In this document: piece after piece, positions 14,019-37,322 of the stretch
Position numbering within the stretch: the first letter of the stretch is position 1
How the letters are laid out: each line of letters opens with the position of its first letter
From: Escherichia coli
GTDB taxonomy: Bacteria > Pseudomonadota > Gammaproteobacteria > Enterobacterales > Enterobacteriaceae
DNA length: 64,000 bases
Assembly: GCF_036507355.1 (NCBI RefSeq)
Contig: NZ_AP027877.1
Direction: 5' to 3' (one strand)
Translations under genes and position numbers: made by a program
The notes under the pieces: generated by a model
What the model saw: the letters and a program-made list of their open reading frames with translations, nothing else
The model's database searches: none
What the model was told of the DNA's origin: nothing

Positions 14019-14949
14019 CGAACGCTCCCAGACGTTTCACGAACGCCAGGTACAGTGCGATGAGAACAATCGGCACAAGGGTGAATGCCGCCGCCATCGG
14101 CATATTGCCAATCGCCCCCTGCTGGGAATAAACCATATTGCCGATAAAATATCCTGGAGGGCCAACCAGTTGCGGGACGATAAAATCACCCAGTGTGAGT
14201 GAGAAGGTAAAGATAGAGCCAGCGGCAATACCCGGGATCGCCAGCGGCAGCACCACATAGCGAAAGGTTTGTCGTGGACGCGCACCGAGATCAGCCGACG
14301 CCTGCAACAATGACGGCGGCAAACGCTCAAGCGCCGCCTGCACGGGCAGGATCATGAACGGCAACCAGATATAGAGAAACACCAGAAAGCGCCCCAGCCC
14401 GGAAGTTGACAGCGTATTGCCGCCCACCGCAGGTAATGTAAGGAACGCAGTCAGCAGTGGTTCCAGCCCAAGATGTTGTAAAAACCACTGCGCCACGCCA
14501 TCTTTTGCCAGCAATAACGTCCAGGCATAGGCTTTAACAATGTAGCTCGCCCACATCGGCAACATTACCGCAATATAAAAAAACGCTTTCATTTTCCCGC
14601 TGGTATAGCGCGCCATATACCACGCCATTGGAAAAGCCAGAATGGCGCTGGCGATAGTGACTGCCACAGCCATAGTCAGCGTGCGGAGAATGATGTCGTA
14701 ATTCGCCGGATTAAACAGCGCACGGATATTCGCCAGCGTCAGTTCCGGCGTTACCGACATGGTGAAATCGTCAAAAGTATAAAATCCCTGCCATAACAGT
14801 GTCAGCAGCGAGCCGAAATAGACAATGCCAAACCACATTAGCGGGCCAAGCAGCAGTAAAAACAGCCCCAGCCCCGGATTACGCCAGAAGAAACCGGACA
14901 CCTTACCCAGACCTGGACGTGAAGGTGATTGCAATACGTTCATCGCCAT
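14008..14949 (-). CDS. ydcU: ABC transporter permease
   Basis: 313-aa hydrophobic ORF; overlaps ydcV start. Confidence 0.85.
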
Positions 14950-27565: not shown

Positions 27566-28096
27566 ATCGATAATACGCGCGTATAAGTTCACATCATCAT
27601 AGGCATCATTCAGGAACTCAGCCTGTTTCAGGCAACCTTCAAGGATAAAACCATTGCGCAAAGCGACCTGGTTGCTTTGCGGATTGTCCACCCGACATTT
27701 GATCACGAAGCGTCTAAGTTCACCAGACTGGGCGTAATGATGAATCAGTGCCTGCAGCGCCTGAGAAATGATCCCCTGCCCCTGATGAGATTCGTCCAGC
27801 CAGTAGCCGATTTCAGCGGTTTTATTCAGTGGTTCAATACGATTAAACGAGATAACGCCGATAAGTTCATCTTCTTTGAAAATCATGAACATTTTGGCAT
27901 AGCCGCGTTGATGCAACATCACATTACCCTGCACCGTTTTTCGCGTGTCCTCTTCAATCTGAACGAACTGCGGCCAGTTTAGCGACTGCTGTAACCAGGT
28001 TTTATTTTTACAGATTAACTGATAAAGAGGAGTGACGTGATTTTCTGCAACAGCATGTAATTCAAGTGATTCGCTTACTTTTATCGTTTCAGTCAT
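27557..28096 (-). CDS. rimL: GNAT acetyltransferase (ribosomal protein L7/L12 serine acetyltransferase)
   Basis: ORF 27557-28111; ATG at 28096 ([16 protein letters not shown]...) gives 179 aa. Confidence 0.85.
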
Positions 28097-32923: not shown

Positions 32924-34564
32924 TCACACCGTAGCGAAACTAACTTGTTCACCCGCTCCGCGAGGTTCTGCCGACACAGAATGTTTGTTCAGACGGAATA
33001 CGTCCACCGCCTCAGTTAATCGTGCAGCCTGTTCTTCAAGGGACACCGCCGCTGCTGAGGCCTCTTCTACCAGAGAAGCATTCTGTTGCGTCACCTTATC
33101 CATTTCAGAAATCGCCTGGCTAACCTGAGTTATGCCTCTACTTTGCTCATCCGAGGCGGCGGCGATTTCCTGCATGATATGTGTGACACTCGCGACGGCA
33201 TCAACAATAGTGCTCATGGTTTTCCCGGCCGTTGCCACCTCATCCGATCCCAGGTCAATTAACCTGACTGATTCACTGATCAAGCCTTCAATCTCTTTCG
33301 CCGCCTGGGCGCTGCGGCTTGCGAGTGTCCGTACTTCGCTGGCGACAACGGCAAATCCACGCCCTTGCTCACCCGCTCGCGCAGCTTCAACGGCAGCATT
33401 CAGTGCCAGAATATTCGTCTGGAAAGCAATACTGTTGATGACGGCGGTGATCTCAGAAATTTTCTTCGAACTCATAGAGATAGCACCCATCGTTTTTACT
33501 ACCCCGGAAACCGTCTGCCCGCCATCGCTGGCTTTAATAGAAGCCTCTTGCGCCAGTTTGCTGGCATGATGCGCGTTATCCGCATTCTGTTTCACCGTCG
33601 CAGTGAGTTGCTCCATGCTGGCGGCAGTTTGTTCGATAGCCGCCGCTTGTTCTTCGGTGCGAGATGAAAGGTCCGCATTGCCAGCGGAAATTTCGCTGGT
33701 GCCACGATAAATCTCTTCCGCGCCCTGTCGAACAGTCCCTACTGTCATCCCCAGTGAATGCTGCATTTGCTGTAAATGACGACTTAAGCGACCGATTTCA
33801 TTACGACCCGCCGGTTCATCATTCATCGTCAGATCGCCACTGGCGATTTTTTCAATCCGTTGTGCGGCATGTTGCAGTGGACGAATGACGATCTGCCGTA
33901 GCACCATAAATGTTATCAGCGTCATGACCAGGGCAAGCACAAACGCGCCAATCATGAACATCCCACCCACGCGGGTGCGCTGATGGGCCAGTTCCGCCAG
34001 TTGGTTGGCTCTGGTGCTACGTATCTTAACGGCTTTGTTCAAAATATCGGTATAAGCATTATCCAGCGTTCGGATCTGCTCACTTTCATGATTGATAATT
34101 GCTTCAAACATACCATTTTTGGCATATTTCAACATAGGTTGCATACCCGTGATATAAGCCTGAAAGCGTTGATTTAATTCAGTGTCGAGGGCTTCATCAG
34201 CAGGTGTTTTCACCGGCCGATTCTGATAAGCACGATAACCTTGCTGCGACTGTTTAATCTCCGATTCGGCTTGCGCAATATTTCGCTTCATTGCTTCCAT
34301 TTCCGCAATACGACTCGCAGCCCCGGCCTGAATCATATTGATCCGGGCTGAACGCAAAAAATCTGAACTGTTCGCTAACCCGGTCCGAATCTCAATCTCC
34401 GCAGTAACATCACGCTGATCGCGATCGGCCTGCCAGAGGAAATAGCCAGCCAGGGCTGAACTTAATGCGAATAGAACTAAGATACCGCCTAGAATGCAGG
34501 CAAATAACGGAACCAACCTGATGTGATGCAAAAAACCTAATCGCTGTGAGGGAGTTGTATTCAT
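32924..34564 (-). CDS. trg: methyl-accepting chemotaxis protein III (ribose/galactose transducer)
   Basis: 546 aa; two TM segments, HAMP region and conserved MCP signalling domain with methylation sites. Confidence 0.9.
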
Positions 34565-34603
34565 TACCGTTGTCTCTCGTCTAGGTTTACTCCTGATAGA
34601 AAG

Positions 34604-34630
34604 TCATCGGCATTTGACGGTAATTACTTA
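34604..34630 (-). promoter_or_regulatory. candidate sigma28 (FliA) promoter for trg
   Basis: Minus-strand TAAGTAAT-N11-GCCGATGA resembles the sigma28 consensus TAAAGTTT-N11-GCCGATAA; chemoreceptor genes are class III flagellar genes. Confidence 0.45.
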
Positions 34631-34859
34631 CGACTAAAAGCCTCTTTGCGTCACATTTTTACAACAATTATTGCAGAGAAGATTAATGCCATTGGAATGA
34701 AGAGAGTAACGAATGGTTAAACTGGCTAACCCGAATGACGAAAAATTCTGGAAAACAGCACGCAATTTCGTCAGGTGATTATTTTCGTCCCTAAGGAAAC
34801 CACATAGGATGCTCACGGGTGCCTGAGACTTTCTGTTTTCAGGCTAACCGGGAATCAGA

Positions 34860-34904
34860 AAGACGAAGGCCCCGACCGATATTTCTATCAACCGAGGCCA
34901 ACGA

Positions 34905-34915
<11 letters not shown>
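34860..34915 (-). ncRNA. sokB: antisense RNA SokB of the hokB/mokB toxin locus
   Basis: Placed by remembered architecture of hok/sok loci (antisense RNA overlapping the mok start region); boundaries not readable from sequence alone. Confidence 0.4.
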
Positions 34916-35112
<197 letters not shown>

Positions 35113-35183
35113 GGGCAAGCGCGGGGATTTTCCCCGCGCATCTGACTAGCAGATTCATTTTCTCATGGCACCCCTTTTATACT

Positions 35184-35357
35184 TCAGTTAGTGCATGTTT
35201 TTTTCGATGCACTAATAGAACCATCATTACAGACAAATTTGCCGCCTGCCGTACAGTGTGAGATCCCCCCTTTCGAACCAGAACAGGGTTTGCGCCCGGC
35301 ATCGGCATAAAAGGAAACAAGCGTTCCCATAAACAAAATAAGTGCCAGTTTTTTCAT
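35184..35357 (-). CDS. ydcA: small secreted Cys-containing protein
   Basis: Hand-translated 57 aa from ATG 35357 with GGAGG upstream: MKKLALILFMGTLVSFYADAGRKPCSGSKGGISHCTAGGKFVCNDGSISASKKTCTN. Confidence 0.7.
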   Translation of the reverse strand: MKKLALILFMGTLVSFYADAGRKPCSGSKGGISHCTAGGKFVCNDGSISASKKTCTN

Positions 35358-35601
35358 ATAACCTCCATGGTTTATCGAATCTTATGTTCGATTTGAACGT
35401 TATACGCTGGTTTATTTTGATACCGTTGATGAGATCAAAGATCGGGTGAATTGATTAAAAATAAGCCAGATGGACGTATGGGCAAGGATTATGGTTTTAT
35501 TTGTCATACAAATAAATATAATAGGCGCTTCCGATGTAGACCCGTATTCTTCGCCTGTACCACGGGTCGGTTTTAGTACAGGCGTTTTCTTTAAATATCC
35601 T

Positions 35602-36132
35602 TCAGGAACGTTTACGCGGCATCATGCGTAGAAGTGTGTTGTCCTTCCAGAAATAGTGGTGTGCCAGTGCAGCCGCAGCGTGCAACCCGATGACAAAATA
35701 TCCCAGATTCGCCAGCGTTTCATGCCACGACTTTAAGCTATCTACCCGTTCGAAATTGGCCTCTGAAGCGTAAGGCATCGTCAAACCAAACGCAAACCAC
35801 GGGTTGCCCCGGTTATACATCATCACCAAACCAATCACTGGCAGCGCAATAAACAGGAGATAAATCACCAAATGTCCCAAATGCGCCAGTCCCGTCATCA
35901 TCGGTTTCGGCTTAGGTATAATCGGCGGGGGTGGGTATTTCAGTCTTAACAAAAGACGAACCACCATCAGCACGAGAATTGAGATGCCACAGGAAACATG
36001 AATCATGTTGATGAGCGGCCGATCGCTACGTGGGAAGAAACCACGAAACTCCATTGCGCAATACGCTGCGATAACCAGCAAAAAGACCAGCCAGTGAATG
36101 CCGATTTGTAACCTTGAGTATTTATTTTCCAT
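35602..36132 (-). CDS. cybB: cytochrome b561
   Basis: ORF 35602-36168; ATG at 36132 (MENKYSRLQIGIHWLVFLLV...) gives 176 aa; conserved His in TM helices. Confidence 0.85.
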   Translation of the reverse strand: MENKYSRLQIGIHWLVFLLVIAAYCAMEFRGFFPRSDRPLINMIHVSCGISILVLMVVRLLLRLKYPPPPIIPKPKPMMTGLAHLGHLVIYLLFIALPVIGLVMMYNRGNPWFAFGLTMPYASEANFERVDSLKSWHETLANLGYFVIGLHAAAALAHHYFWKDNTLLRMMPRKRS

Positions 36133-36320: not shown

Positions 36321-37322
36321 ATGAGTAAAGTTGGTATTAACGGTTTTGGTCGTATCGGTCGACTGGTGTTGCGTCGTTTACTTGAAGTCAAAAGCAACAT
36401 AGACGTTGTCGCTATTAATGATCTTACTTCCCCAAAAATTCTCGCCTATCTGCTGAAACATGATTCAAACTATGGTCCGTTCCCCTGGAGCGTTGATTTT
36501 ACGGAAGATTCACTTATCGTTGATGGGAAAAGTATCGCGATTTACGCCGAAAAAGAGGCTAAAAATATTCCGTGGAAAGCGAAAGGGGCAGAAATCATTG
36601 TCGAATGTACTGGCTTTTATACCTCCGCCGATAAATCGCAGGCGCATCTTGATGCTGGTGCGAAGAAGGTGTTGATTTCCGCTCCTGCCGGTGAAATGAA
36701 AACCATCGTTTATAACGTTAATGACGACACTCTGGATGGCAACGACACCATTGTTTCCGTGGCGTCATGCACCACTAACTGCCTTGCGCCGATGGCCAAA
36801 GCCTTGCATGACAGTTTCGGGATAGAAGTCGGCACGATGACGACCATTCATGCCTATACTGGCACCCAGTCACTGGTGAATGGCCCGCGTGGTAAAGATT
36901 TACGTGCTTCACGCGCAGCGGCAGAAAATATCATTCCCCACACTACGGGGGCGGCAAAAGCCATTGGTCTGGTGATCCCGGAACTGAGCGGCAAACTGAA
37001 AGGTCATGCGCAACGCGTGCCGGTGAAAACAGGTTCGGTCACTGAGCTGGTGTCCATTCTCGGAAAAAAAGTGACTGCCGAAGAGGTGAATAACGCACTT
37101 AAACAAGCAACCACCAATAACGAGTCATTTGGTTATACCGATGAAGAAATAGTCTCTTCCGATATCATTGGCAGCCATTTCGGTTCAGTGTTTGATGCCA
37201 CGCAAACGGAAATTACCGCCGTGGGCGATTTACAACTGGTGAAAACGGTCGCCTGGTACGATAACGAATATGGCTTCGTCACGCAGCTTATTCGCACCCT
37301 CGAAAAATTCGCTAAACTCTGA
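36321..37322 (+). CDS. gapC: glyceraldehyde-3-phosphate dehydrogenase C, uninterrupted reading frame
   Basis: 333-aa [23 protein letters not shown]...; NAD-binding GxGxxG; catalytic SCTTNC motif. Confidence 0.88.

What the first reader, a model, noticed from the sequence alone, without database searches (positions are those of the whole stretch)
34604..34630. Candidate sigma28 promoter upstream of trg
On the minus strand TAAGTAAT-N11-GCCGATGA fits the FliA consensus spacing with 5/8 and 7/8 matches, about 40-65 nt upstream of the trg start codon. This is consistent with chemoreceptor genes being late flagellar genes.
Basis: partly seen in the sequence, partly recalled or inferred. Interest (0 to 1): 0.2.

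Follow-up and report, generated by a model that had tools for sequence, protein, structure and literature searches.

The report
Known FliA (sigma-28) promoter of trg

Summary
On the minus strand, TAAGTAAT (34630-34623), 11 nt, then GCCGATGA (34611-34604), ends 40 nt before the trg ATG (34564). The -10 matches at 7/8.

The window is E. coli. K-12 MG1655 has the same two octamers. Published K-12 work settles the function:
- FliA ChIP-seq peak with exactly this 28-mer, and trg RNA falling 108 to 4 in a fliA deletion (PMC4183435).
- trg::lacZ dependent on sigma-28 and directly activated by CRP (PMC2859248).
- Transcript start mapped 33/32 nt before the ATG, which is window 34597/34596, 7-8 nt after the -10 (PMC2760140, citing Park 2001).

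New tests here:
- A weight matrix built from other FliA sites ranks this site first of 127,946 window positions. That score alone is expected 0.3 times per 64 kb.
- 79 of 80 Trg-orthologue loci across Enterobacteriaceae carry the motif at the same place, including the non-consensus G of the -10.
- A TGTGA CRP half-site and a T-tract sit just upstream. The CRP-to--35 spacing is identical to the aer promoter.

Verdict: confirmed, already known, low interest.

The parts
34623..34630 (-). -35 octamer TAAGTAAT of the sigma-28 promoter (4/8 to TAAAGTTT; the informative TAA at positions 1-3 is kept)
   Evidence: Sequence. Identical in K-12. It is the first 8 nt of the FliA ChIP-seq motif for trg (PMC4183435). 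TAA is present in 77 of 79 unique orthologous sequences.
34612..34622 (-). 11-nt spacer TACCGTCAAAT (K-12 has G where the window has A at 34613)
   Evidence: The length is conserved but the sequence is not: mean 0.41 bits per column across orthologues.
34604..34611 (-). -10 octamer GCCGATGA (7/8 to GCCGATAA; non-consensus G at position 7)
   Evidence: GCCGAT is present in 78 of 79 and the G at position 7 in 73 of 79 unique orthologous sequences; mean 1.83 bits per column.
34596..34597 (-). Transcript start (A at 34597 = -33 from the ATG, Park 2001; T at 34596 = -32 by directed mapping, with ambiguity 'tc' matching the bases at 34596-34595)
   Evidence: PMC2760140 table, transferred to the window through the identical K-12 sequence. 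Not measured in this strain.
34637..34658 (-). CRP site AAATGTGACGCAAAGAGGCTTT (good left half TGTGA at 34655-34651, poor right half GAGGC). Its centre lies 17.5 bp upstream of the first base of the -35 octamer, as at aer.
   Evidence: Sequence. CRP binding and activation of trg100::lacZ are in PMC2859248. Same register as the aer TGCGA half-site. TGTGA is conserved upstream in 75 of 79 orthologous sequences and the TTTT tract in 70 of 79.
34565..34597 (-). 33-nt 5' untranslated leader with GAGAG Shine-Dalgarno-like stretch; carries this strain's private G-to-A change at 34582
   Evidence: Folding is unremarkable.
32924..34564 (-). trg coding sequence (546 aa methyl-accepting chemotaxis protein, ribose/galactose sensor)
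   Evidence: ORF. MCP family hits. Annotated trg in RefSeq genomes.
34868..34899 (-). Context: terminator hairpin at the end of sokB, the nearest upstream transcription unit on the same strand
   Evidence: Terminator scan. K-12 sokB annotation placed on the window via alignment A1.

Best explanation
This is the promoter of trg (trgp). RNA polymerase carrying the flagellar sigma factor FliA (sigma-28) recognises TAAGTAAT-n11-GCCGATGA. It starts transcription 7-8 nt downstream of the -10, at window 34597/34596, giving a 33-nt leader. trg is therefore switched on late in the flagellar cascade: FlhDC induces fliA, and FliA is released when the anti-sigma factor FlgM is exported. Both octamers are sub-optimal. 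cAMP-CRP bound to the site at 34658-34637 raises promoter activity, with the same geometry as at the aer promoter. There, CRP centred at -49.5 places the alpha C-terminal domains of RNA polymerase 18.5 bp on each side of it. Shown in K-12 on identical elements: FliA occupancy, fliA dependence, CRP binding and activation, and the transcript start. Shown here: the presence, rank and cross-genus conservation of the elements, and the aer-like spacing. Inferred: that this strain behaves like K-12, and that the alpha-CTD arrangement mapped at aer also holds at trg.
For: The sequence is at the stated coordinates. The octamers are identical in K-12 MG1655. FliA ChIP-seq gives a peak of FAT 23 with this motif, and trg RNA falls from 108 to 4 in a fliA deletion (PMC4183435). 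The trg100::lacZ fusion needs sigma-28 and is activated by CRP, and CRP shifts the trg fragment (PMC2859248). Microarrays show -2.0 in the fliA deletion and +2.2 on sigma-F induction (PMC1935009). The transcript start is at -33/-32 from the ATG (PMC2760140). The held-out weight matrix ranks the site 1 of 127,946. No sigma-70-like promoter was found in 34300-35700, against 2.2 expected. 79 of 80 orthologous loci from about 20 enterobacterial genera carry the motif at a fixed distance from the start codon. Information is concentrated in the -10 (1.83 bits), the T-tract (1.72), the -35 (1.32) and TGTGA (1.06), against 0.41-0.44 in the spacer and far upstream. The CRP half-site register is identical to aer.
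Against: The -35 is a poor match (4/8). The total score (15.8 bits) is in the lower half of known FliA sites and would occur by chance about 0.3 times per 64 kb. An equal-scoring site in the same window is not bound in K-12. No experiment was done on this strain. Upstream of the transcript start it differs from K-12 at four positions in the CRP-site-to--10 stretch: one in the CRP right-half/flank region, two between the CRP site and the -35, and one in the spacer. With the mapped trg starts, the CRP centre is nominally -50.5/-51.5 rather than the -49.5 defined at aer.
Confidence: 0.97

Rival explanations
1. The motif is a chance resemblance and trg is transcribed from another promoter, either a sigma-70 promoter or read-through from the upstream sokB unit.
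For: A match of this score is expected 0.31 times per random 64 kb. sokB lies upstream on the same strand.
Against: No sigma-70-like site was found in the intergenic region. sokB ends in a 14-bp terminator hairpin followed by a T-rich tail. trg RNA falls 27-fold without FliA, and a FliA ChIP peak sits on the motif. The transcript start maps 7-8 nt after the -10. The motif is conserved across genera while the flanks are not.
Confidence: 0.01
2. The promoter is real, but the -35 is read in another register: GTAAGTAA with a 12-nt spacer, which aligns the AAGT core with consensus positions 3-6.
For: That register also gives 4/8 matches (sequence).
Against: In the orthologues the conserved bases are TAA at positions 1-3 of the 11-nt register (77 of 79). 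The G and T that the shifted register needs vary (TAAGCAAT, TAATCAAA, TAAGAAAA). MEME on the ChIP-seq peaks chose the 11-nt register. At aer, the T and A at positions 1 and 3 are the bases whose mutation kills activity.
Confidence: 0.02
3. The promoter is a plain class-3 FliA promoter and the upstream TGTGA is irrelevant in this strain. It has a C instead of the K-12 T at 34640 in the weak right half of the CRP site.
For: The right half-site is already poor (GAGGC versus TCACA). The strain differs from K-12 there. One E. coli strain (GPEC1176) has lost the left half-site altogether yet keeps the core promoter.
Against: CRP binds and activates the K-12 trg promoter. The left half-site and its spacing are intact here, and TGTGA is conserved in 75 of 79 orthologous sequences. 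The right-half position that differs is not conserved across genera.
Confidence: 0.1

Closest known systems
E. coli K-12 trg promoter (trgp; Park et al. 2001; Hollands et al. 2010, PMC2859248; Fitzgerald et al. 2014, PMC4183435)
   Same: Same gene and same locus (cybB-hokB/sokB-trg-ydcI). The -35 and -10 octamers, the spacer length, the CRP left half-site and the distance to the ATG are all identical.
   Different: Five single-base differences in the 101 nt from the CRP site to the ATG. They are C/T at 34640, A/G at 34635, G/A at 34631, A/G at 34613 in the spacer, and A/G at 34582 in the leader. None is in an octamer.
E. coli aer promoter (CRP-activated sigma-28 promoter, CRP centred at -49.5)
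   Same: The architecture is the same: one CRP site whose centre is 17.5 bp upstream of the -35 octamer, an 11-nt spacer, and sub-consensus octamers. According to PMC2859248, it is the only other sigma-28 promoter directly activated by CRP.
   Different: The sequences differ: aer has -35 TAAAGATA, -10 GCCGACAT and half-site TGCGA. The aer start was mapped 6 nt after the octamer, the trg start 7-8 nt after it. The alpha-CTD positions were mapped only at aer.
Canonical class-3 flagellar promoters (tar, motA, fliC, flgM, tsr)
   Same: The same sigma factor and the same TAAAGTTT-n11-GCCGATAA framework, with control through FlhDC, FliA and FlgM.
   Different: Those promoters score 18-25 bits on the same matrix against 15.8 for trg. 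They showed no direct CRP effect, and FliA occupancy is higher (FAT 43-110 against 23).

Membership tests
Sigma-28 (FliA) dependent promoter | Bipartite motif TAAAGTTT-n11-GCCGATAA with an 11-nt spacer and an intact CGA core in the -10 | tested here: met
   TAAGTAAT-n11-GCCGATGA has 4/8 and 7/8 matches with the CGA core intact. It scores 15.8 bits on the held-out matrix, rank 1 of 127,946 in the window.
Sigma-28 (FliA) dependent promoter | Transcript start a few nucleotides (about 6-8) downstream of the -10 octamer | not testable with these tools
   Published for the identical K-12 sequence: -33 (Park 2001) and -32 (directed mapping) from the ATG. That is 7-8 nt after the octamer (PMC2760140).
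Sigma-28 (FliA) dependent promoter | FliA holoenzyme occupies the site in vivo | not testable with these tools
   Published for K-12: ChIP-seq peak FAT 23, with the motif centre 18 nt upstream of the peak centre, as is typical for FliA sites (PMC4183435).
Sigma-28 (FliA) dependent promoter | Expression lost without fliA | not testable with these tools
   Published for K-12: RNA-seq 108 to 4; lacZ fusion dependent on sigma-28; microarray -2.0 and +2.2.
Sigma-28 (FliA) dependent promoter | Motif conserved upstream of orthologous genes while the flanking sequence drifts | tested here: met
   79 of 80 loci have a site of at least 9 bits within 350 nt upstream, against 0.09 expected per locus. Information per column is 1.83 bits in the -10 and 1.32 in the -35, against 0.41 in the spacer.
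aer-type CRP-activated sigma-28 promoter | Single CRP site on the same helix face as at aer, with its centre 17.5 bp upstream of the -35 octamer (-49.5 in aer numbering) | tested here: met
   When the two promoters are anchored on the sigma-28 motif, TGTGA (trg) and TGCGA (aer) fall in the same columns.
aer-type CRP-activated sigma-28 promoter | CRP binds the fragment and raises sigma-28-dependent transcription at constant FliA level | not testable with these tools
   Published for K-12 trg100: gel shift and lacZ assays in crp+/crp- and fliA+/fliA- backgrounds (PMC2859248). This strain has one base change in the weak right half.

The most novel reading that the evidence does not exclude
The weakness of this promoter may be selected rather than accidental. 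Across about 20 enterobacterial genera the -10 keeps the non-consensus G (GCCGATGA, 73 of 79). The -35 keeps only TAA plus an A-rich tail. A single good CRP half-site and a TTTT tract stay at a fixed distance. This suggests that CRP-dependence of trg is an ancient, conserved design. In Escherichia the CRP half-site sits 1 bp closer to the -35 than in the other genera (17.5 versus 18.5 bp). That would be a small natural test of how strict the '-49.5' rule is.
Probability: 0.5. Interest if true: 0.15.

Novelty: already known. Interest (0 to 1): 0.05.

Why it matters
It matters little beyond correct annotation. The site explains why trg, which lies far from the flagellar gene clusters, is co-expressed with the motility regulon and is also tied to carbon-source status through CRP. 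All of this has been in the literature and in regulatory databases since 2001-2014. The only modest additions here are the cross-genus footprint, which shows that the sub-optimal octamers and the CRP half-site are conserved together, and a clear example that a motif score alone does not identify FliA promoters.

Tried and rejected
1. The machine-read supplement of PMC2859248 printed the K-12 trg fragment with extra A's (CATAAAGTAATT, CGCAAAAGAGG). That suggested an indel in the -35 relative to the window. Direct alignment with NC_000913.3 shows no indel, so I treated it as a text-extraction error.
2. A sigma-70 promoter scan of 34300-35700 found nothing.
3. I tried to obtain a dRNA-seq start-site table (Thomason 2015, PMC4288677), but the paper is not held. 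The start site came instead from PMC2760140.
4. The Salmonella FliA paper (bioRxiv 2020.09.09.289983) mentions trg only in a strain genotype. No Salmonella locus was among the 80 returned.
5. Folding the 5' leader of the window, of K-12 and of a Citrobacter-type leader gave energies no better than shuffles (z = 0.3 to 0.8). I make no claim of a leader structure.
6. I first computed the CRP centre as -49.5 from the mapped trg start. Recounting after reading the aer numbering gives -50.5/-51.5 from the mapped starts. The figure -49.5 applies only in aer-equivalent numbering.

Full report
**Observation.** Reading the minus strand of 34400-34900 gives ...GTAAAAATGTGACGCAAAGAGGCTTTTAGTCG TAAGTAAT TACCGTCAAAT GCCGATGA CTTTCTATCAGGAGTAAACCTAGACGAGAGACAACGGTA ATG. 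TAAGTAAT occupies 34630-34623, the spacer is 11 nt, and GCCGATGA occupies 34611-34604. The ATG at 34564 opens a 546-aa ORF. That ORF hits methyl-accepting chemotaxis protein models and is annotated trg in the best-matching E. coli genomes. The coordinates and distances in the finding are correct. Against the consensus TAAAGTTT-n11-GCCGATAA (PMC2859248), the -10 matches at 7/8.

**Chance.** I built a log-odds matrix from the 24 FliA ChIP-seq sites with FAT above 4 in Table 2 of PMC4183435. I left trg out and zeroed the spacer columns.
- The site scores 15.8 bits and ranks first of 127,946 positions on both strands of the window.
- First-order Markov sequences of 64 kb reach this score 0.31 times on average.
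- A match of about the same score at 27838-27865 (+) is identical in K-12, where it lies antisense within rimL. It is not one of the 52 ChIP-seq peaks.

So the motif alone would not be convincing. Position is what makes it so: only 3.6e-4 such matches are expected in a 150-nt, correctly oriented zone upstream of a gene.

**Identity with the known promoter.** The window is E. coli. A 501-nt query matches 5,104 of 5,426 complete genomes, the best at 99.8%. Alignment with K-12 MG1655 shows identical octamers and spacer length. The differences are one base in the spacer, three bases just upstream and one in the leader.

The published K-12 evidence is as follows.
- Fitzgerald et al. (PMC4183435) list a FliA ChIP-seq peak (FAT 23) whose motif is TAAGTAATTACCGTCAAGTGCCGATGAC, assigned to trg. 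Normalised trg expression is 108 in motile MG1655 and 4 in the fliA deletion, a significant change.
- Zhao et al. (PMC1935009) report -2.0 in the fliA deletion and +2.2 on sigma-F induction.
- Hollands et al. (PMC2859248) show that a trg100::lacZ fusion depends on sigma-28 and is activated by CRP, and that CRP shifts the trg fragment.
- Mendoza-Vargas et al. (PMC2760140) list the trg p1 start at -33 (Park 2001) and at -32 by directed mapping, with a tailing ambiguity 'tc'.

In the window, -33 is the A at 34597. The bases at 34596-34595 are T and C, which matches the stated ambiguity and so confirms the counting convention. The start therefore lies 7-8 nt after the -10 octamer.

**Upstream activator site.** AAATGTGACGCAAAGAGGCTTT (34658-34637) has a perfect left CRP half-site and a poor right one. 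When the trg and aer promoters are anchored on the sigma-28 motif, TGTGA (trg) and TGCGA (aer) fall in the same columns. The CRP centre is therefore 17.5 bp upstream of the first base of the -35 octamer in both. At aer this geometry is -49.5, because the octamers are numbered -32..-25 and -13..-6. Moving the aer site by 5, 8 or 12 bp abolished sigma-28-dependent activation. FeBABE cleavage placed the alpha C-terminal domains 18.5 bp on either side of CRP. Counted from the mapped trg starts, the same site is nominally at -50.5 or -51.5. That is within the uncertainty of the two mapping methods.

**Conservation.** A scan of one genome per species with the N-terminal 280 residues of Trg returned 80 loci. 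They come from Escherichia, Citrobacter, Enterobacter, Lelliottia, Leclercia, Kluyvera, Kosakonia, Phytobacter, Pluralibacter, Trabulsiella, Mangrovibacter and others.
- 79 of the 80 have a sigma-28 site of at least 9 bits within 350 nt upstream. The window-wide frequency of such scores predicts 0.09 per locus.
- Anchored on the motif, the consensus is aAa.tgtgacc....t.gcgcTTTT.gc.gTAA..aaa...c......tGCCGATGaC.
- Information per column is 1.83 bits in the -10, 1.72 in the TTTT tract, 1.32 in the -35 and 1.06 in TGTGA. It is 0.41 in the spacer and 0.44 further upstream.
- The non-consensus G of GCCGATGA is kept in 73 of 79 unique sequences, and TAA in 77 of 79.
- In the non-Escherichia genera TGTGA lies 1 bp further from the -35 (64 of 79).
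- Within Escherichia, including cryptic-clade representatives, the -10 is invariant and the -35 is TAAG[T/A/C]AAT.

**Alternatives.**
- No sigma-70-like promoter was found in the intergenic region.
- The nearest upstream unit on the same strand, sokB, ends in a strong terminator hairpin at 34899-34868. The 27-fold fliA dependence leaves little room for read-through.
- A shifted -35 register with a 12-nt spacer is not supported, because the bases it needs are the variable ones in the orthologues.

**Conclusion.** The finding is a correct rediscovery of trgp, a CRP-assisted sigma-28 promoter. It is already known and of low interest. The only mildly new points are the cross-genus co-conservation of the sub-optimal octamers with the CRP half-site, and the 1-bp difference in CRP spacing between Escherichia and its relatives.

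Noticed in passing
window 34582 (minus strand A; G in other genomes): This is the single base by which the window differs from the best-matching complete genome (O157:H7 PV15-279) over 34400-34900. No complete E. coli genome reaches 100% over that region. It lies in the trg leader at about +15/+16 and weakens a small 5' hairpin (CAGG...CCTG) from -7.5 to -4.7 kcal/mol. Neither fold is better than shuffles.
   Followed up: partly
window 27838-27865 (+): TACGATTAAACGAGATAACGCCGATAAG scores about as well as the trg site on the FliA matrix (14.9-15.9 bits). It is identical in K-12 (first base at NC_000913.3 1499196, antisense within rimL) but is not among the 52 published FliA ChIP-seq peaks.
   Followed up: partly
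window 14121-14148 (+): This is an exact copy of the weak intragenic FliA ChIP-seq site reported inside ydcU in K-12 (GCTGGGAATAAACCATATTGCCGATAAA, FAT 3). It lies about 1.7 kb from where simple collinearity with K-12 would put it, so the two strains differ by an indel between trg and ydcU.
   Followed up: no
window 34817-34968 (+) and 35528-35591 (+): Rfam matches to sok (104.9 bits) and RydC (92.5 bits). The hokB/mokB/sokB toxin-antitoxin locus sits between cybB and trg. The sok model matched the hok-mRNA strand, opposite to the sokB gene as annotated in K-12.
   Followed up: no
window 36321-37322 (+): An intact 333-aa type I glyceraldehyde-3-phosphate dehydrogenase gene (gapC position) lies next to cybB. 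It is annotated as a normal CDS in O157:H7. From memory, this gene is a pseudogene in K-12.
   Followed up: no
L086 (E. coli GPEC1176), aligned to window 34640-34680: In this strain the sequence upstream of CAAAGAGG is unrelated to the window. The left CRP half-site is lost while the sigma-28 core promoter is intact. It is a natural variant that should have lost CRP activation of trg.
   Followed up: no
L007-L078 (non-Escherichia Trg loci), 3-20 nt after the -10: Most non-Escherichia genera share a leader of about 45 nt that begins with a conserved hairpin-like GCGTG-TTTT-CACGC and ends in AAGAGAGTCGA. Escherichia has a shorter, different leader. The fold energy is not better than shuffles.
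   Followed up: partly
E. coli population: About 940 of 5,426 complete E. coli genomes lack the 101-nt promoter region, and 322 lack the whole 501-nt query. This may relate to the truncation of trg to tls, with deletion of adjacent DNA, in phylogroup B2 (PMC12623472). I did not check which genomes lack it.
   Followed up: partly
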